DNA of 64,000 bases from positions 32,001 through 96,000 of the forward strand of contig JAGWFT010000002.1 in NCBI GenBank assembly GCA_028867755.1, given 5' to 3'. Position numbers and translations under genes: made by a program. The first letter of the stretch is position 1; each line of letters starts with the position of its first letter. Source of the DNA: Nitrososphaerota archaeon (lineage in GTDB: Archaea > Thermoproteota > Nitrososphaeria > Nitrososphaerales > Nitrosopumilaceae). The notes below the pieces were generated by a model. It was not told where the DNA came from. It searched no databases and was given only the letters and a program-made list of their open reading frames with translations. This document shows positions 47,035 to 58,464 of this stretch, in pieces.

Positions 47035-47346
47035 ATGAACAAACCAATAATTATTGGAGCCGCACTATTTGCCCTCTTCGTAGTGTCATCATTTGCTCCA
47101 TTCGCTGCGGCACAGTACGCAGGTGTGGGTGGCGGCGGTGGCATTACTCTAGAAGACCAGTTAAAGCTAGCACGTGCAAGAATAGCAGATGTACAAGCAA
47201 ACCCACATGCTGGGTCTGGTACACCATATCTTGACGCTAACGGTGTCATTGGTGCTACAATCATATCTGGTGCTATATTCGGCGGAATCTTCATTGCTTT
47301 CGTCGTAAGAGCAAAGCAAGTAGAAAAGGCAAGAAAACAACGCTAG
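47035..47346 (+). CDS. amoZ: Probable ammonia monooxygenase accessory subunit AmoZ
   Basis: Signal peptide, GSGTPYL motif, C-terminal TM; position next to rps15 and near amo genes as recalled for AOA. Confidence 0.6.
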   Translation: MNKPIIIGAALFALFVVSSFAPFAAAQYAGVGGGGGITLEDQLKLARARIADVQANPHAGSGTPYLDANGVIGATIISGAIFGGIFIAFVVRAKQVEKARKQR

Positions 47347-47433
47347 ATTTTCTCTTTTTCTTATTTTATTATTTATTCTTAGATCCCATTTTATCAAATA
47401 CTACAGAAATGTATATATCGTACCTAAATTGTT

Positions 47434-47712
47434 TTGAATAATATGATGAGCGCGATATTCATGCTCGTAGGTATGCTGTCTAACTTTGCAGGTCAAATAG
47501 GTCCAAACTATGACCCGCTATTCTATGATGTCATGACCTACATATTTGCAACTATGATGTTCGCAGTATTCCTACTCGGCGTCATTGCTTTCTGGCTCAG
47601 AGCACACGGAATGGGTTCAGGCGCTGTCAGAGAAAGATGGGTCTCTGAACTCGACAAGCACTTTGAGAGAGAAGGCATTGGTCTGATACCAGACAACGGA
47701 AAATACTGGTAG
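47434..47712 (+). CDS. amoY: Probable ammonia monooxygenase accessory subunit AmoY
   Basis: Small TM protein directly after amoZ candidate; assignment by synteny; start 47434 (TTG) or 47443. Confidence 0.5.
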   Translation: MNNMMSAIFMLVGMLSNFAGQIGPNYDPLFYDVMTYIFATMMFAVFLLGVIAFWLRAHGMGSGAVRERWVSELDKHFEREGIGLIPDNGKYW

Positions 47713-48380: not shown

Positions 48381-48722
48381 TTAGAGTGAAGACTCGCCGC
48401 GCTTTTTGGTTCCTACATCTATGGCGTCATCTACATTATAGATGAATATTTTGCCTTCTCCTGTCATACCAGTACTTGCATGAGATGTTATGGCATCAAC
48501 GACTTTGTCCACCATGTTATCATGTACTACAACATAGATGTTTACGTTCACATTAAAGGCAGATTGGAATCGTCCACCTCTCCCAGATGATACCATCTCT
48601 CTGGGTCTCTTTCCTCTACCTTTTGCTGTGAAATATGTGAAGCCACCGATGTCTAATTGTGTTAATGCAGTAAAGACTGGATCTAACTTGTCTTCTGGAA
48701 TTACAGCTTCTATTTTTTTCAT
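48381..48722 (-). CDS. glnB: Nitrogen regulatory protein P-II
   Basis: MKKIEAVI, KGRG T-loop, TGMTGEGKIF, GTKKRGE. Confidence 0.93.
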   Translation of the reverse strand: MKKIEAVIPEDKLDPVFTALTQLDIGGFTYFTAKGRGKRPREMVSSGRGGRFQSAFNVNVNIYVVVHDNMVDKVVDAITSHASTGMTGEGKIFIYNVDDAIDVGTKKRGESSL

Positions 48723-48794
48723 AGCTAGATTCATTGCAACTATGAAATGCTTTTATTAAAATTATTGCTTAGATGTATACTAAAGAAAGAATAA

Positions 48795-48836
48795 TATCAT
48801 AAAAAGACGATTTTGGGATAAAATACCTTTTATAGA
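48795..48836 (+). promoter_or_regulatory. Promoter copy 1 of the amt-type 42-bp element (upstream of Cas4-like gene)
   Basis: TATCATAAAAAGACGATTTTGGGATAAAATACCTTTTATAGA; 37/42 identical to 51382-51423; 22 nt to ATG. Confidence 0.85.
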
Positions 48837-48858
48837 TCAAAAACCGCTTTTTCAAAGA

Positions 48859-49605
48859 ATGACCGAATCTAAAATCAAGAAGGTTCGAATAGTAGAGAAA
48901 GTTCAAGAAAAACTCAAGCAGGGAATCGATAACTATAGAGCAGCAGGTGACGCAGCACCAAAATTTGATGTCTATGATGTGATCGAAGAAGTGTTTGCAG
49001 CAATTAATCCAACAATAGCTGACGAAGGTAAAGTAACAGTGGATGAGGTCAGCGGTTGTCTGCGAGCTTCATATCTGGACAGAAAAGATCCATCTGAAAA
49101 AACTCACAAACAGATGCTGTCAAAAATTATGCAAAAGAGTGCATTGAGCATTATGGAAAAACCCGTAGAGGGACAGCTTGATGCAGGCTCCGGCGTAAAA
49201 CTAGTTGGCAGAGCAGAAAGAGTTGAAGATGATGTAGCAATGGTGTTCAAGGCAGTCGAGGAATTACCAGAGATGCCATATCCAGAACACTTCATACAGC
49301 TAAATTCCTATCTGCACATGTTTGGAAAACCAGAAGGTGTAATCGTCTACTTCGACAAAGAAGGAAATGAAATGGAATTCCAAGTTCCAAGAAGTGACCG
49401 ACTCATGGGTGAAACCAAACGTAGAGCTCGTATATTGAACACATTGTTGAAAAACAATATTGCTCCTGCAATAGAACCATCCGAAAGATGTCTTAGTTGC
49501 CCACATAACGAAAAGTGTTACTATACATCTGAGGACAAACAAAAATGGGGCTTTTGGGCTCGTGGCAAATGGCGCGAACTTAAACCAAAAGACAACATCC
49601 TATAA
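48859..49605 (+). CDS. Solo Cas4-like Fe-S protein with degenerate nuclease site
   Basis: C67 plus C211xxC214x5C220; QxxxY (Q147-Y151) kept; motif II GRAE, motif III VFK; no cas genes or array nearby. Confidence 0.75.
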   Translation: MTESKIKKVRIVEKVQEKLKQGIDNYRAAGDAAPKFDVYDVIEEVFAAINPTIADEGKVTVDEVSGCLRASYLDRKDPSEKTHKQMLSKIMQKSALSIMEKPVEGQLDAGSGVKLVGRAERVEDDVAMVFKAVEELPEMPYPEHFIQLNSYLHMFGKPEGVIVYFDKEGNEMEFQVPRSDRLMGETKRRARILNTLLKNNIAPAIEPSERCLSCPHNEKCYYTSEDKQKWGFWARGKWRELKPKDNIL

Positions 49606-49720
49606 CTACACTTTTTTATTCTAATTTTTATTTTATGGAATGCCAATAACTGAATTTGATCTCTTATCCCTCTCTCATAAGATCTAATAGTACAAAGCAG
49701 AAATTATGTAATTCTGTAAA

Positions 49721-49945
49721 TCACTTCAATGTGTCTGAATTTTCTACATTTCTTAGGTAAACTTTAGTCTTGAATGGTTTTTGTGCGTCCTTGTGATGAT
49801 ACAAGATCTTGATGCCGTGCTCAAAAGGTACAATCTGAATAGAATCAGTTGGCTGTAATGAATTATCAGTCTCTCTTAGATATTCAACTAATTCTCTTTG
49901 TGGCATTTTAAGAATTTCTTCTATTTTTTTTCTGCTAGATTTCAA
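49721..49945 (-). CDS. Hypothetical protein (74 aa)
   Basis: ORF with TATA-like element upstream; TTG start. Confidence 0.6.
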   Translation of the reverse strand: MKSSRKKIEEILKMPQRELVEYLRETDNSLQPTDSIQIVPFEHGIKILYHHKDAQKPFKTKVYLRNVENSDTLK

Positions 49946-50063
49946 TATGTTCCGAATTCAATTCTGATATATAATGTGTCTTGATTTTGGTACTCATTGA
50001 TGATACTGTTGATACGGTGTCATGTTTACTGTTAAATATGCTAAATGATTTGAGACCTTTGAT

Positions 50064-50540
50064 ATGGTTGATAGCAAAATAGATTGGTTTGAAAATTTTC
50101 TAGGACTTGGGTATCATCTTTATGATGTCAGGCCAGTTTTACTTGTTCTTTTAGATGAAAGAAAGGAAATTGCTAATACTTGGAATAAGATTCTGAAATA
50201 TTTTCCAGACGATGAAATTAAAACAAGATTCATAGAAAGAGGATCTACCTATGAATTTGTTCTTTATTGTGAATCTCGTATATTGCAGACTACATGGGTT
50301 TTCCTAAAATCTCTTAACATGTCTGAGCATTACAAGCAGTTCAAAGAAGACTATGATGGTGCAGCTGTACTAAAACTAGCATTGTACATCAAAAAAAAGA
50401 AAGGTGACAACGAACTAGAGATATTCAAGTATCAAAAAAGACTAACAAATGTAAAATTTCTTACTGAACCAGAAGCAGAACAGGATTTCATACTGACAAG
50501 AGCTACTCAGAAGCTTCATGACAAGCCACATGATAATTAA
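50064..50540 (+). CDS. Hypothetical protein (158 aa)
   Basis: ORF with TTAAATA about 25 nt upstream. Confidence 0.75.
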   Translation: MVDSKIDWFENFLGLGYHLYDVRPVLLVLLDERKEIANTWNKILKYFPDDEIKTRFIERGSTYEFVLYCESRILQTTWVFLKSLNMSEHYKQFKEDYDGAAVLKLALYIKKKKGDNELEIFKYQKRLTNVKFLTEPEAEQDFILTRATQKLHDKPHDN

Positions 50541-50561
50541 AACCACGATAGATAGTGTATG

Positions 50562-51080
50562 CTACAAGTGTGATTTTATCAAATTTACCCATTCATCCCA
50601 ATCCAAGCTATAATACATCAGTGGCTGTCGTTGGGGATAATTTATCACGGCTCTTGTTATGGCAAATTCATACTTCTTTATCTTGTTTTTTTGGTCTTTG
50701 AATGTGATTCTAAGAAAGTTTACTTTTCTAGATGTGACGCTCTCAACATTTACTATGGAACTCAATGGAATCATCCAACTTTTAGAACTCTTTGATATGT
50801 CCTCGTCTAGATCTGCTTCAGAATAATGTGCAAGTTTTCCCACCCTTGCCTTGTCGTCACCAAAGTACTTCTCCCTCTCTTTAGGCGTGATATACAAATA
50901 ATGAGGGGCAAAAATTACATTCTTGTCTGTTAATGCAAGAACTCCTTCCTTACTTTTATGGAAAAAGCCTGCTAATCCAAGAGCTATTCCCCAAATCTTT
51001 GGAAGCGAAGCTATGATGTATTCTTCGTCTTCTAAATTAACTCTCATTGAAATAAGCAATACTGAAGATGGGTAAATCAA
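50562..51080 (-). CDS. Hypothetical protein, possible PH-like fold
   Basis: GVLALTDKNVIF...IPLSSIVNVE pattern; start may be 51047. Confidence 0.7.
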   Translation of the reverse strand: MIYPSSVLLISMRVNLEDEEYIIASLPKIWGIALGLAGFFHKSKEGVLALTDKNVIFAPHYLYITPKEREKYFGDDKARVGKLAHYSEADLDEDISKSSKSWMIPLSSIVNVESVTSRKVNFLRITFKDQKNKIKKYEFAITRAVINYPQRQPLMYYSLDWDEWVNLIKSHL

Positions 51081-51282: not shown

Positions 51283-51381
51283 GGCAAAGATACTTGGTAG
51301 CTTGTATAATAATTTTCTTTAAGATTTTTTGAAATTTTATGATACCATAATTCGATCAAAAGTATCATATCTTCTGTATAG

Positions 51382-51423
51382 TATCATAAAAAAGAGTTTT
51401 TAGGATAAAATACCTTTTATAGA
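51382..51423 (+). promoter_or_regulatory. amt promoter (copy 2 of the 42-bp element)
   Basis: TATCATAAAAAAGAGTTTTTAGGATAAAATACCTTTTATAGA with TATA-like TTTTATAG; 22 nt to ATG. Confidence 0.85.
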
Positions 51424-51445
51424 CGAGAACCATCTCTACGAAAAG

Positions 51446-52951
51446 ATGTCGGAAACAATCTCGAGAATGCCATTACAGATATTATCTAAGCACAAATGGC
51501 CGCTCGTTTTTGCCTTGGCAGCTTTGGTCGTCACAGTGTCAGGATTCACTGCAATGCAAGACGCACAAGCACAATTTGGTCCAATTGGCAATCTTGCCAA
51601 TCCGCAAAAGACAAATGAAATTCACTGTGGTCAAGCAATGACCCCACCAGGAAATGGAACCTTTGGTGGTAGTGAAGCACCATGTATCGATACAGGAGAT
51701 ACAACTTTCATGTACGCAGCAGCTGTGTTCGTCATGATAATGACACCAGGTGGTGTCGGTTTCTTGTATGGTGGTGCCACACGAAGAAAACAAGCACTAA
51801 CAGTCATCTTACAGAATTTCATGGTCTACTCAATTGTGAGTGTTCAGTGGGTCGTTTGGGGTTATGCAATAATGTTTGGTCCATCTGCAGATCCATATGG
51901 TTTCATCGGAAACTTGGATTGGTTTGGACTGAATAATGTCTTTCATAATGCACCAGCTGACGTTTACGCACCAACAATTCCACACTTGGCCTATGTTATG
52001 TTCCAGCTCATGTTCGCTGCTATCACTCCTGCACTTGCAATCGCAGGATATGCTGATAGAGTCAAAATGAGTGCATTTCTGATTCATGTAGTTCTATGGA
52101 CTACATTTGTCTATGACTTTGTTGGACATGCAAACTGGTCACTTGGAAGTCAGGGCACTTCAGTAGGTTGGTTAGCAAAAATAGGGACAGAAGACTTTGC
52201 AGGTGGTACAGTCATCCACATCACATCAGGTTTTGCTGGATTAGCTGCCGCAATGTTCCTTGGACGTAGAATAGGTTATGGAAAAGCTCCATTTGAACCT
52301 CATTCAATTCCGCTAATTATCCTAGGAGCTACAATTCTTTGGTTTGGTTGGTTCGGTTTCAACCCAGGAAGTGCAGGATTTGCAGGGTTCCTTGAAACTC
52401 AGGCTTTCCAAAACACGAACGTGGCAACGGCTGTTGCGGCAATTTGGTGGCTGTTTCTATCTTGGGCTCACACAGGAAAAGCAAGTGCAATTGGCGCTTG
52501 TAACGGTGCAGTAGCTGGACTTGTAGCAATTACGCCAGCGTCAGGTTTCATTGGAACTTGGGCATCAATAATCGTAGGCTTTGCATGTGCAACTGTCTGC
52601 TTCTATTGTGTCTTAATCAAGAACCGGGCAAGAATAGACGATGCGTTGGATACATGGGGTGTCCACGGAATGGGTGGTGTTACTGGTGCACTCTTAACAG
52701 GTGCGTTCAGTGAAACACGTATCAATCCATACGGTCACAACGGACTATTCTTTGGAAACCCAATGCAGTTTGTAATCAACTGTGAAGGAGCAGGCTTTGG
52801 AGCCGCATGGTCATTTGGTATCACTTACATAATATGGAGAATACAAGATGCAATTTGGCCTGGCGGTGTAAGAGTCACACCAAAAGAAGAAGAGATAGGC
52901 TTAGACTTGTCACAAGTCGGAGAAAGAGCATACTCGCAATTTGCGGAGTAG
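51446..52951 (+). CDS. amt: Ammonium transporter (Amt) with N-terminal signal/extension
   Basis: FQLMFA, DFAGGTVIH, WFGWFGFNPGS, GVHG twin-His and Phe-gate residues. Confidence 0.97.
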   Translation: MSETISRMPLQILSKHKWPLVFALAALVVTVSGFTAMQDAQAQFGPIGNLANPQKTNEIHCGQAMTPPGNGTFGGSEAPCIDTGDTTFMYAAAVFVMIMTPGGVGFLYGGATRRKQALTVILQNFMVYSIVSVQWVVWGYAIMFGPSADPYGFIGNLDWFGLNNVFHNAPADVYAPTIPHLAYVMFQLMFAAITPALAIAGYADRVKMSAFLIHVVLWTTFVYDFVGHANWSLGSQGTSVGWLAKIGTEDFAGGTVIHITSGFAGLAAAMFLGRRIGYGKAPFEPHSIPLIILGATILWFGWFGFNPGSAGFAGFLETQAFQNTNVATAVAAIWWLFLSWAHTGKASAIGACNGAVAGLVAITPASGFIGTWASIIVGFACATVCFYCVLIKNRARIDDALDTWGVHGMGGVTGALLTGAFSETRINPYGHNGLFFGNPMQFVINCEGAGFGAAWSFGITYIIWRIQDAIWPGGVRVTPKEEEIGLDLSQVGERAYSQFAE

Positions 52952-53057: not shown

Positions 53058-53270
53058 ATGGTCGACAAATGGTTAGCATTTTGTGCATCACAATTCCTAA
53101 GCGGAGGATTGGGATTCTATTGGGGATTTGCAGCAAGAGCTGATCCACATCATTATAATTTGATATTCATGTATGTCGGAGGTTTCTTTTTCTCACTTGG
53201 CGTATTTGCTATAACTCGATGGGGATTTGACAGGTGGAAGTCAAAACAGAAACCACGACGACGTAAATAA
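53058..53270 (+). CDS. Small two-TM membrane protein
   Basis: Two hydrophobic segments, basic C-terminus; follows amt. Confidence 0.7.
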   Translation: MVDKWLAFCASQFLSGGLGFYWGFAARADPHHYNLIFMYVGGFFFSLGVFAITRWGFDRWKSKQKPRRRK

Positions 53271-53359
53271 ATCCCAACTTTTTCATACCTTTTAAAATTA
53301 ATTTTTTATAAATTAGGTTTGTTTATATCAACCAGTCTTACGAATACCTTTGATCTTCT

Positions 53360-54052
53360 TTGTCCAAAGACAAATCATTTCATTTGACCAGAAAAAAACG
53401 CTATATGATCTTTGCAGTTATTACAGCAGTGGGAGTGGGAATTGCACTCTCTAATTCTTTGAGCAGCTTCAATTATGGGCATACAAAAGACTGGAATTTT
53501 GATTCTTACCAAAATAATACTTTGCCTGCAGATTTTGCAGCCTTTGAATCAAATTCTGAATCTGGATTGTGGGTGGTAAAAGCTGATGACTCGACATCAT
53601 CAAAACCTAATGTGTTAGCAACATTGCCTACCGTAAATAGTTCAGGTTATCATATGCAAATAATGCCTGATTCTCCTGCAGTATCTGATGCTGAAATCAG
53701 TGTAAAATTCAAGATAATGCCTGGTCACAAGGTAGAGCAAGCTGGACTGGTAATCCGATTTATTGACCCAAGTCACTATTTTGTTTTGATGGCAGATCCG
53801 GCAAACAATAGGCTCTCATTGTGTAAAGCTGATATTCAATTTGTAGTGTGTAACTATGAGATAAACACGCCAATTAGTACAGGTGAATGGCACACTTTGA
53901 AAGCTACTACCTCATCAGAGGGCATAGGAGGGTGGTTAGATGGTAGCGAACTGATCAAAGCCAATAATGAATACTATCAAACTGGACAGGTGGGACTGTG
54001 GACCAAGGATGATACTGAAGCTTCTTTTGATGACCTGAAAATCGACTACTAG
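53360..54052 (+). CDS. Membrane-anchored concanavalin/DUF1080-like beta-sandwich protein
   Basis: QAGLVIRF, WHTLK, GQVGLW..SFDDLKI; TTG start. Confidence 0.7.
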   Translation: MSKDKSFHLTRKKRYMIFAVITAVGVGIALSNSLSSFNYGHTKDWNFDSYQNNTLPADFAAFESNSESGLWVVKADDSTSSKPNVLATLPTVNSSGYHMQIMPDSPAVSDAEISVKFKIMPGHKVEQAGLVIRFIDPSHYFVLMADPANNRLSLCKADIQFVVCNYEINTPISTGEWHTLKATTSSEGIGGWLDGSELIKANNEYYQTGQVGLWTKDDTEASFDDLKIDY

Positions 54053-57606: not shown

Positions 57607-58464
57607 TTGAAGCAAGAATATCGATTAATTTCATCAACACCAAAACCCTTTGTAAAGTGGGCTGGAGGAAAAAGACAACTTTTACCTGTCATTACAAATC
57701 ATATTCCAAAATTTGAGAGATATTTTGAACCATTCCTGGGTGGAGGTGCAGTATTTTTCAGTCTGGTTTCTCAAGACCGATATGTCAAATGGTCTGTATC
57801 TGATCTGAATTCTGATCTAGTCCTGTCTTATGTTACAATACGAGATAGAGTAAAGGAATTGATTTCTGCCTTGGAACTGCATTCTACAAATTATTTCAAG
57901 AACCCAAGTTCATACTATTACAAAATTCGTGAAAGCAACCCAAAAGGACAGATTGAGAAGGTGTCAAAACTCATCTTTCTCAATAAGACGTGCTTTAATG
58001 GGCTGTATCGAGTAAACAGTAAAGGAAAGTTCAATGTGCCTCTTGGCAAGTACGTAAATCCAAACATCGTGAATAAAGAAAATCTTCTAGCAGTAAGTGA
58101 AACTCTACAATCAAAAGAGATCTCAATTAAATGCCAGGATTTTGAAAGAGCACTCAAAAACGCAACCAGCGACGACTTTGTCTACTTGGATCCTCCATAC
58201 CAACCAGTAAGCGAGACTGCAAACTTTACAAGCTATACAGATGGGAGTTTTGGATACGATGACCAGGAAAGACTATGTGCCAAATTCAAGGCCCTTGACA
58301 GAAAAGGTGTCAAAGTGTTGCTATCAAACTCAAAATCTTCTGAAATACTTGAGCTCTTCGATGAGTTCTCAGACGGCATTATAGAGATAAACGCAAACCG
58401 ATTCATAAATTCAGTATCTAAGAAAAGAACAGGCCATACTGAGCTTCTCATTAAAAACTACTGA
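57607..58464 (+). CDS. dam: Dam-family (D12 class) N6-adenine DNA methyltransferase
   Basis: KWAGGK, EPFLGGGAV, FNGLYRVN, DPPY; TTG start. Confidence 0.92.
   Translation: MKQEYRLISSTPKPFVKWAGGKRQLLPVITNHIPKFERYFEPFLGGGAVFFSLVSQDRYVKWSVSDLNSDLVLSYVTIRDRVKELISALELHSTNYFKNPSSYYYKIRESNPKGQIEKVSKLIFLNKTCFNGLYRVNSKGKFNVPLGKYVNPNIVNKENLLAVSETLQSKEISIKCQDFERALKNATSDDFVYLDPPYQPVSETANFTSYTDGSFGYDDQERLCAKFKALDRKGVKVLLSNSKSSEILELFDEFSDGIIEINANRFINSVSKKRTGHTELLIKNY

What the first reader, a model, noticed from the sequence alone, without database searches (positions are those of the whole stretch)
48859..49605. Nuclease-degenerate Cas4-like Fe-S protein inside the P-II/Amt/AMO nitrogen locus
Seen: the protein keeps the four Cas4-type cluster cysteines (C67, C211, C214, C220) and the QxxxY motif. 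The RecB-like catalytic positions are altered: GxxD reads GRAE, ExK reads VFK, and the G..H of motif I is missing. It has an extra N-terminal helical segment and an aromatic/basic tail (WGFWARGKWR). It is divergent from glnB, shares the amt promoter, and has no CRISPR or cas neighbours. Known: Cas4/AddB folds wrap a [4Fe-4S] cluster around a PD-(D/E)xK nuclease, and solo Cas4s exist in archaea. Inference: a repurposed, non-cutting Fe-S/nucleic-acid-binding protein that may act as a redox/NO sensor or P-II partner in ammonium regulation.
Basis: partly seen in the sequence, partly recalled or inferred. Interest (0 to 1): 0.85.

Follow-up and report, generated by a model that had tools for sequence, protein, structure and literature searches.

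The report
Inactivated Cas4-like protein tied to Amt
Ammonia-oxidising archaea keep a Cas4-shaped iron-sulfur protein that has lost the residues needed to cut DNA; it always sits beside one type of ammonium-transporter gene and here is driven by a copy of that gene's promoter, so it most likely serves ammonium uptake or its control, not CRISPR or DNA repair.

Summary
A confident model matches Cas4 SSO0001 (Z 18). All four cluster cysteines are invariant. The motif-I His and the Glu of ExK are missing in every orthologue, whereas about 100 more distant homologues keep the full nuclease set.

It belongs to an AOA-specific clade with two paralogues, both degenerate. This paralogue lay within about 2 kb of an orthologous Amt wherever the contig allowed. 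That includes five genomes chosen only for having that Amt.

In this genome the gene and amt have twin promoters. They share a 21-mer found nowhere else in 1.64 Mb, plus a dyad just upstream of BRE/TATA. In two other lineages the twins are 75-88 nt identical, which indicates gene conversion.

A canonical cas4-cas1 pair lies on another contig. The genome's only Amt and only P-II flank this gene.

Best reading: an exapted, non-cutting Fe-S accessory or regulatory protein of the ammonium transporter. The NO/redox-sensor and P-II-partner ideas remain untested. The scan found this family and its twin promoters before, on other genomes; I re-tested those claims and they hold. Wang et al. 2019 drew the paralogue only as a 'stand-alone Cas4'.

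The parts
48859..49605 (+). Cas4-like Fe-S protein gene (Cas4L1), 248 aa. Cas4 core is about residues 34-224. It carries an N-terminal helix (3-31) and a C-terminal beta-hairpin (230-241) as additions.
   Evidence: ORF and translation. Fold Z 18 to 4ic1. Motif states. dN/dS 0.04-0.10.
48791..48858 (+). Promoter of Cas4L1. Dyad TATCATAAAAA-N4-TTTTGGGATA at 48795-48820. Shared 21-mer with TATA-like TTTTATAG at 48816-48836. The ATG lies about 23 nt after the TATA box, so the transcript is probably leaderless.
   Evidence: 77-nt direct repeat with the amt upstream region, in the same register to the ATG. The 21-mer occurs only at these two sites in the genome, even allowing up to 3 mismatches. The dyad occurs only at these two promoters. 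Leaderless status is inferred from the spacing.
51378..51445 (+). Twin promoter in front of amt. Dyad at 51382-51407 and the same 21-mer at 51403-51423. Extra GTATCATA-type half-sites lie upstream at 51335-51391.
51446..52951 (+). Ammonium transporter, called Amt-W in this report. It is the only Amt found in this genome. By its position near amoA and its signal peptide it corresponds to amt2 of N. devanaterra.
   Evidence: PF00909 at E 2.9e-106. Single match in the genome. PMC4836417 for the N. devanaterra naming; the equivalence is inferred.
48381..48734 (-). P-II (GlnB/GlnK family) gene, divergent from Cas4L1. It is the only P-II found in this genome.
   Evidence: PF00543 at E 1.4e-21. Single match in the genome.
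49606..49645 (+). Oligo-T tracts directly after the Cas4L1 stop codon. They fit archaeal termination and a monocistronic unit.
   Evidence: Sequence read. The function is inferred.
49721..49945 (-). orf74, a small protein of unknown family. It lies next to Cas4L1 in every Cas4L1 locus examined.
   Evidence: tblastn synteny. No family match.
50064..51080 (.). orf158 (+) and orf172 (-, weak PH/GRAM-like hit). Both are members of the same conserved module.
53058..54052 (+). orf70 (small membrane protein) and orf230 (N-terminal TM segment, weak lectin-like hit). In families f2 and f5, orf230 lies between Cas4L1 and amt.

Best explanation
This is an exapted member of the Cas4/RecB-nuclease fold that no longer cuts DNA. 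It works with the ammonium transporter Amt-W.

Shown here:
- The Cas4 scaffold and its four-cysteine metal-cluster site are kept under strong purifying selection.
- The His of motif I and the Glu of ExK are gone in all orthologues and in the sister paralogue.
- The gene is inherited together with, and next to, one Amt lineage across four AOA families.
- In three lineages it is transcribed from a copy of the amt promoter. The copy includes a dyad site just upstream of BRE/TATA.

Inferred:
- One unknown dimeric factor switches both genes on together, to similar levels.
- The protein carries an Fe-S cluster.
- It acts as a cytoplasmic accessory or regulatory partner of Amt-W. It would use its clade-specific N-terminal helix and its Arg-Gly-tipped C-terminal hairpin as interaction surfaces. 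It would tie ammonium uptake to a signal that an Fe-S cluster can read, such as redox state, NO or iron.

I favour a protein partner over a DNA-binding regulator for two reasons. Whole-promoter identity predicts transporter-like abundance. The clade has also lost the basic charge of its DNA-cutting relatives.
For: Fold:
- Family profile against 4ic1, E 5.5e-31.
- Model pLDDT 89.6. VIA-align Z 18.0 over 182 residues.

Degeneracy:
- Of 132 aligned homologues, about 100 show C..G..H..GxxD..ExK..H.
- All 20 tier-1 and all 8 tier-2 AOA sequences lack the His and the Glu, yet keep the four Cys.
- The two tiers form one clade (SH-aLRT 99).

Selection:
- dN/dS is 0.04-0.10.
- Orthologues are 51-95% identical across families.

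Linkage:
- An Amt gene lies within 0-2 kb in 14 of 16 Cas4L1 loci. The other two are cut by a contig end on that side.
- Five further genomes were chosen only for having an Amt at least 72% identical. All five have Cas4L1 about 1 kb from it.
- Two f2 genomes without that Amt lack Cas4L1 too.

Co-regulation:
- The 77-nt repeat sits in the same register to the ATG.
- The 21-mer and the dyad are unique to these two promoters in the genome.
- The twins are 75 nt identical in g9 and 87 of 88 nt identical in f3, running into the first codons. The orthologous promoters barely align between those lineages.

Not CRISPR:
- A canonical Cas4 (PF01930, E 7e-57) sits next to Cas1 on contig C24.
- This protein scores 22.7 bits against TIGR00372, whose cut-off is 65.

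Charge shift.

This genome's only Amt and only P-II flank the gene.
Against: - There is no experimental or expression data for this family. I found none in the paper library.
- Cas4L1 is one of about seven genes inherited together with this Amt. Linkage alone therefore does not single it out; only the promoter twin does.
- Twin promoters were not seen in families f2 and f5, so co-regulation by promoter copy is not universal.
- The sister paralogue (tier 2) lies near an Amt only within Nitrosopumilaceae. Elsewhere its steady neighbours are other genes.
- Asp120 (Glu here), Lys/Arg131, His144 and Gln147/Tyr151 survive, and a conserved acidic E123-D124-D125 loop is close by. A rearranged active site is therefore not excluded.
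- Fe-S binding is inferred from sequence only.
Confidence: 0.55

Rival explanations
1. The protein is an autoregulatory, sequence-specific DNA-binding regulator. The dead nuclease fold binds the dyad TATCATAAAAA-N3-5-TTTTAGGATA in front of its own gene and amt, and its Fe-S cluster modulates that binding in the manner of NsrR or IscR.
For: - The dyad sits just upstream of BRE/TATA at exactly two promoters in the genome: its own and amt's.
- The Cas4 fold can read short DNA sequences. PAM recognition in the Cas4-Cas1-Cas2 structures listed is the example; this is established knowledge.
- An inactivated Cas4-like protein serves as a DNA-binding nucleocapsid protein in TTV1, as cited in PMC5704561.
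Against: - The clade is mildly acidic, unlike its basic nuclease relatives.
- A regulator is rarely expressed from a full copy of the promoter of a very highly expressed target. This is inference.
- In f2 and f5 the gene keeps its place beside amt without any shared promoter.
- No HTH or other DNA-reading addition was found.
Confidence: 0.2
2. The protein is still a nuclease with a rearranged active site, for example D120 plus the E123-D124-D125 loop plus K/R131. It acts in DNA repair or recombination, and its place beside amt is historical.
For: - Acid migration is known within PD-(D/E)xK enzymes (established knowledge).
- D120, H144 and Q147/Y151 are largely kept.
- Wang et al. 2019 speculated that the neighbouring 'stand-alone Cas4' of Nitrosopumilaceae aids recombination at the atp operon.
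Against: - The metal-binding His and Glu are lost in all 28 clade members sampled. About 100 outgroup sequences keep them.
- Lys is Arg in most orthologues.
- Linkage with one Amt lineage persists through several local rearrangements across four families.
- The promoter twin argues for shared control with a transporter.
Confidence: 0.12
3. One reading: a P-II (GlnB/K) target whose Fe-S cluster senses NO or redox state.
For: - The gene is divergent from the genome's only P-II gene, with the dyad lying between them.
- That arrangement is conserved in genera g1 and g9.
Against: - P-II adjacency is absent in f2 and f5, and is loosened in f3.
- P-II next to amt is expected regardless of this gene (GlnK-AmtB, established knowledge).
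- Nothing tested here bears on NO or redox sensing.
Confidence: 0.1

Closest known systems
Cas4 SSO0001 of Saccharolobus solfataricus (PDB 4ic1) and the Cas4 family (Pfam PF01930, TIGR00372)
   Same: Same fold (Z 18.0, rmsd 3.0 over 182 residues). Same C-xN-C-x2-C-x5-C cluster ligands. Recognisable GRAD/E and QhxxY remnants.
   Different: - No motif-I His and no Glu of ExK; Lys is often Arg.
- Falls below both curated cut-offs.
- Not next to cas1/cas2 or a CRISPR array; the genome has a separate canonical cas4-cas1.
- Has an added N-terminal helix and C-terminal hairpin.
- Mildly acidic, not basic.
'Stand-alone Cas4' drawn next to the atp operon and the high-affinity Amt of Nitrosopumilaceae (Wang et al. 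2019, PMC6863869)
   Same: It is the sister paralogue (tier 2; 30-37% identity; one clade at SH-aLRT 99). It is also degenerate and also near an Amt gene within that family.
   Different: - That paper treats it as a Cas4 nuclease that may aid virus-mediated recombination. It does not note the lost catalytic residues.
- Tier 2 lacks the N- and C-terminal additions.
- Tier 2 lies in a u217-AtpC-m78 cluster and shows no twin promoter.
- This genome lacks tier 2.
TTV1 nucleocapsid protein TP1, an inactivated Cas4-like nuclease (as cited in Hudaiberdiev et al. 2017, PMC5704561)
   Same: A precedent for a Cas4-fold protein that lost catalysis and took on a non-enzymatic role.
   Different: TP1 is viral and structural, and it binds DNA. 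The AOA protein is cellular, chromosomal, conserved across families and tied to a transporter. I made no direct sequence comparison here.
GlnK-AmtB (a P-II protein gating an ammonium transporter, with the two genes co-expressed)
   Same: Works-like analogy only. A small cytoplasmic protein is co-expressed with an Amt gene and inherited with it.
   Different: The fold is unrelated. Binding is not shown. The likeness of the Arg-Gly hairpin tip to the GlnK T-loop is recalled from memory and was not tested.

Membership tests
Cas4 (PF01930 / TIGR00372) | RecB-like PD-(D/E)xK fold of the Cas4 type | tested here: met
   AF2 model pLDDT 89.6. 4ic1 at Foldseek E 3e-9 and Z 18.0 over 182 residues. Family profile against 4ic1, E 5.5e-31.
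Cas4 (PF01930 / TIGR00372) | Four cluster cysteines, C...C-x2-C-x5-C | tested here: met
   C67, C211, C214 and C220. They are invariant in 20 orthologues and nearly invariant in 132 homologues. Actual cluster binding is not testable here.
Cas4 (PF01930 / TIGR00372) | Catalytic motifs: His of motif I, Asp of GxxD, Glu and Lys of ExK | tested here: not met
   His is replaced by Leu or Phe. Glu is replaced by Val, Ile, Leu or Met in all orthologues. Asp is Glu here. Lys is Arg in most orthologues. Hudaiberdiev 2017 states that all Cas4 family members keep these motifs.
Cas4 (PF01930 / TIGR00372) | Score above the curated model cut-offs | tested here: not met
   TIGR00372 scores 22.7 bits against a cut-off of 65. 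PF01930 is not among the Pfam hits; only sub-threshold PDDEXK_3 and PDDEXK_1 appear. The six-frame PF01930 search of the genome finds only the contig C24 gene.
Cas4 (PF01930 / TIGR00372) | Association with cas1/cas2 or a CRISPR array (for CRISPR-linked Cas4) | tested here: not met
   No array in the window. Cas1 genes lie only on contig C24.
Cas4 (PF01930 / TIGR00372) | Metal-dependent DNA exonuclease or endonuclease activity | not testable with these tools
   Needs a biochemical assay.
AOA degenerate Cas4-like clade (tier 1 + tier 2, defined here) | Forms one clade apart from canonical homologues and shares the loss of His and Glu | tested here: met
   SH-aLRT 99 for the joint clade; 100 for tier 1 and 93 for tier 2. 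Motif table.
GlnK/P-II-type Amt regulators | P-II fold with a T-loop | tested here: not met
   The fold is Cas4-like. Any likeness is functional analogy only.
GlnK/P-II-type Amt regulators | Physical binding to the Amt cytoplasmic face | not tested
   The complex-prediction machine could not be reached.

The most novel reading that the evidence does not exclude
Cas4L1 is a new kind of ammonium-transporter gatekeeper: an Fe-S protein built from a dead nuclease. Its conserved C-terminal beta-hairpin has an invariant Arg235-Gly236 tip. The hairpin docks into the cytoplasmic exit of Amt-W, much as the GlnK T-loop does in AmtB. The cluster would make that gating respond to NO or redox state. This would link ammonia import to the state of the ammonia-oxidation pathway in archaea, where no regulator of AMO or Amt is known.
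Probability: 0.12. Interest if true: 0.9.

Novelty: new variant of a known kind. Interest (0 to 1): 0.6.

Why it matters
Ammonia-oxidising archaea drive much of global nitrification. Almost nothing is known about how they control ammonium uptake.

This finding supplies three things:
- A conserved, lineage-specific Fe-S protein that is genetically locked to one ammonium-transporter lineage.
- A two-member regulon marked by a unique promoter and dyad.
- A concrete handle for experiments: protein, operator and partner.

It also corrects an annotation. These genes are labelled 'CRISPR-associated exonuclease Cas4' in public records and in at least two papers. They are then read as signs of CRISPR immunity or viral recombination, although the catalytic residues are gone. 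Finally, it is a cellular example of a Cas4 fold recruited to a non-nuclease role.

Tried and rejected
1. A first AF2 run with only close orthologues gave pLDDT 55. It was replaced by a run on a 132-sequence alignment.
2. Complex prediction (Amt residues 60-501 with Cas4L1 as partner) was sent 16 times. The machine was never reachable, so there is no result of any kind on binding.
3. A search for longer, fused forms found none; the tool itself calls this weak evidence.
4. I looked for further members of the regulon. The 21-mer (up to 3 mismatches) and the dyad occur at no other promoter. The 11 TATCATAAAAA sites elsewhere have no matching promoter context.
5. I looked for twin promoters in families f2 and f5, and between the tier-2 operon and its neighbouring Amt. 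None was found.
6. Literature searches by likely locus tags (NDEV_1786-1791, Nmar_1693-1703) and by 'Cas4' plus AOA terms found no functional or expression data.
7. The ESM Atlas gave nothing for orf74. For the protein itself it returned only its own Nitrososphaerota 'DUF83' clusters.
8. Cluster look-up of the nearest canonical homologues gave no organism names, so the donor lineage of the clade is unknown.
9. Rejected: 'CRISPR adaptation Cas4'. It fails the motif, cut-off and context tests.
10. Rejected: 'pseudogene or chance ORF'. dN/dS is 0.04-0.10 and there are hundreds of orthologues.

Full report
**What is there**

The window comes from a 1.64-Mb AOA genome (99.95% complete, 112 contigs). 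Close hits carry Nitrosotalea names. The ORF at 48859-49605 (+) encodes 248 aa. It has its own promoter, and oligo-T tracts follow its stop codon directly, so it looks monocistronic.

- C67, C211, C214 and C220.
- GRAE at residues 117-120 and VFK at 129-131.
- QLNSY at 147-151.
- The tail WGFWARGKWREL at 230-241.

**Fold**

- Pfam gives only sub-threshold PDDEXK hits.
- TIGR00372 (cas4) scores 22.7 bits against a cut-off of 65.
- A direct PDB sequence search weakly finds SSO0001 (4ic1). It aligns GRAE/VFK/QLNSYL with GRAD/EIK/QLQIYL.
- A profile of 132 homologues hits 4ic1 at E 5.5e-31, 4r5q at 4.6e-13 and a type I-C Cas4 at 3.8e-7.
- AF2 on close orthologues alone failed, with pLDDT 55. With the deep alignment it gave pLDDT 89.6.
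- Foldseek then ranks 4ic1 first at E 3e-9.
- VIA-align gives Z 18.0, rmsd 3.0 over 182 residues, model range 34-224.

The N-terminal helix (3-31) and the C-terminal hairpin (230-241) therefore lie outside the Cas4 core.

**Degeneracy belongs to the family, not to this gene alone**

- Searches found about 116 clusters of orthologues, 55-95% identical and 239-258 aa long. All named ones are thaumarchaeal.
- In 20 representatives the four Cys are invariant. The ExK position reads [VILM]-F-[KR] in all of them. Most have GRAD; Glu120 is confined to the own genus and a few relatives.
- An exhaustive HMMER search found 181 relatives.
- In the 132-sequence alignment about 100 homologues carry the full set C..G..H..GxxD..ExK..H.
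- Two AOA groups lack the His and the Glu. These are tier 1 (this family) and tier 2 (about 215 aa, 30-37% identical).
- The two tiers form one clade (SH-aLRT 99), and each is monophyletic. The loss is therefore most simply explained as a single event before a duplication.
- dN/dS within the genus is 0.04-0.10.
- The clade is mildly acidic (pI 6.3 and 6.6). The canonical homologues are basic (pI 8.3, net +4.8).

**Distribution**

- In 201 genomes of the class, 159 had a match. All 114 genomes of the own family had one.
- Tier 1 is in the own genus (11 of 11; this tally includes the unpublished genome G132), in g9, in one genus of f3, in f5 and in f2. f2 is Nitrosocaldaceae by the names.
- The rest of the family has tier 2 only.
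- Two f3 genera had neither tier with this query.
- Some f2 genomes have both tiers. This genome has tier 1 only.

**Linkage with Amt**

- An Amt gene 70-95% identical to the window's lies 0-2 kb from Cas4L1 in 14 of 16 loci. The other two loci are cut by a contig end on that side.
- The local order differs between lineages. P-II is divergent from Cas4L1 in g1 and g9. Amt itself is divergent from it in f3. orf230 lies between the two genes in f2 and f5.
- As a forward test I searched 141 genomes of the order with the Amt alone. I took the five new genomes with a match of at least 72% identity. All five have Cas4L1 about 1 kb from that Amt.
- Two f2 genomes without that Amt lack tier 1.
- Cas4L1 is, however, one of about seven genes that travel together: orf74, orf158, orf172, orf70, orf230 and Amt. 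Linkage alone does not single it out.

**Twin promoters**

This lead came from earlier notes of the scan, and I tested it myself.
- The 68 nt before the Cas4L1 ATG and the 68 nt before the amt ATG form a repeat in the same register.
- They share the exact 21-mer GGATAAAATACCTTTTATAGA. This occurs nowhere else in the genome, even with 3 mismatches.
- They also share a dyad, TATCATAAAAA-N3-4-TTTTAGGATA, just upstream. It is likewise confined to these two promoters.
- The TATA-like element lies about 23 nt before each ATG, which suggests leaderless transcripts. This is inference.
- The twin is present in all genomes of g1 examined.
- In g9 the two copies are identical over 75 nt including ATGTCTGGAG.
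- In f3 they are 87 of 88 nt identical as an inverted repeat that runs about 19 nt into both coding regions. The orthologous promoters of these lineages barely align with those of the window. That pattern is concerted evolution by gene conversion.
- No twin was seen in f2 or f5, or at the tier-2 loci.

**Not CRISPR**

- The window has no repeat array.
- The genome has a canonical Cas4 (PF01930, E 7e-57) directly before Cas1 on contig C24, and a second, split Cas1 elsewhere.
- The window protein and that Cas4 share only the C-terminal Cys region.
- The genome's only Amt and only P-II are the two genes on either side of Cas4L1.
- amoB, amoC and amoA follow 5-8 kb downstream.

**What is known**

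- Hudaiberdiev et al. 2017 state that all Cas4 family members keep the catalytic motifs. They name TTV1 TP1 as an inactivated derivative.
- Wang et al. 2019 drew a 'stand-alone Cas4' beside the atp operon and the high-affinity Amt of Nitrosopumilaceae. They speculated about virus-mediated recombination.
- That gene is tier 2. It sits in a u217-AtpC-m78-Cas4L2 cluster divergent from an Amt paralogue plus a rhodanese.
- I found no paper that notes the lost residues or the tie to amt.
- Earlier follow-ups of this scan reached the same reading on other genomes. I re-derived the points I use.

**Interpretation**

- Shown: the fold, the conserved Cys, the lost catalytic residues, purifying selection, co-inheritance with one Amt lineage, and promoter twins in three lineages.
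- Inferred: Fe-S binding, co-expression, and a role with Amt-W.
- I favour a protein-level accessory or regulatory role (0.55). Full promoter identity predicts transporter-like abundance. The clade lost the basic charge of its relatives and gained conserved terminal appendages.
- Rivals: an autoregulatory dyad-binding factor (0.20), a nuclease with a rearranged site (0.12), and the P-II/NO-sensor version (0.10).
- A complex prediction with Amt could not be run because the machine was unreachable, so binding remains entirely open.

Noticed in passing
G000 contig C24:273620-274941 and C24:439947-440906 (outside the window): A canonical short Cas4 (PF01930, E 7e-57) sits directly upstream of a full Cas1. 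A second Cas1 is split into two adjacent matches, so it may be frameshifted or belong to a casposon.
   Followed up: partly
whole genome G000: Only one Amt and one P-II gene were found with the Pfam models, both in this locus. Three Amt genes are reported for N. devanaterra (PMC4836417).
   Followed up: partly
G000 contig C24:372208-377164 versus L049:3308-9941: The site that in other Nitrosopumilaceae holds rhodanese, HA-Amt, u217, AtpC, m78, Cas4L2 and u181 here keeps only u181, u217 and rhodanese, next to a distant (24% identity) AtpC. That fits the atp-operon replacement described by Wang et al. 2019. The tier-2 Cas4-like gene and that Amt are missing here.
   Followed up: partly
window 49721-51080 and 53058-54052: A conserved set of uncharacterised genes travels with Amt-W and Cas4L1 in four AOA families: orf74, orf158, orf172 with a weak PH/GRAM-like hit, the small membrane protein orf70, and the membrane-anchored orf230 with a weak lectin-like hit. 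None has a family assignment.
   Followed up: partly
window 51335-51391: Upstream of the amt promoter twin there are extra GTATCATA-type half-sites. They include a 15-nt inverted pair (93% complementary, 27 nt apart) that the Cas4L1 copy lacks. amt may therefore have additional regulator sites.
   Followed up: no
window 57607-58464: A D12-class (Dam-like) N6-adenine DNA methyltransferase gene lies directly downstream of amoA (PF02086, E 6e-64).
   Followed up: no
window 47035-47712: Two small membrane-protein ORFs (103 and 92 aa) lie between rpS15 and the P-II side of the locus. They are conserved at 61-98% across the genus.
   Followed up: no
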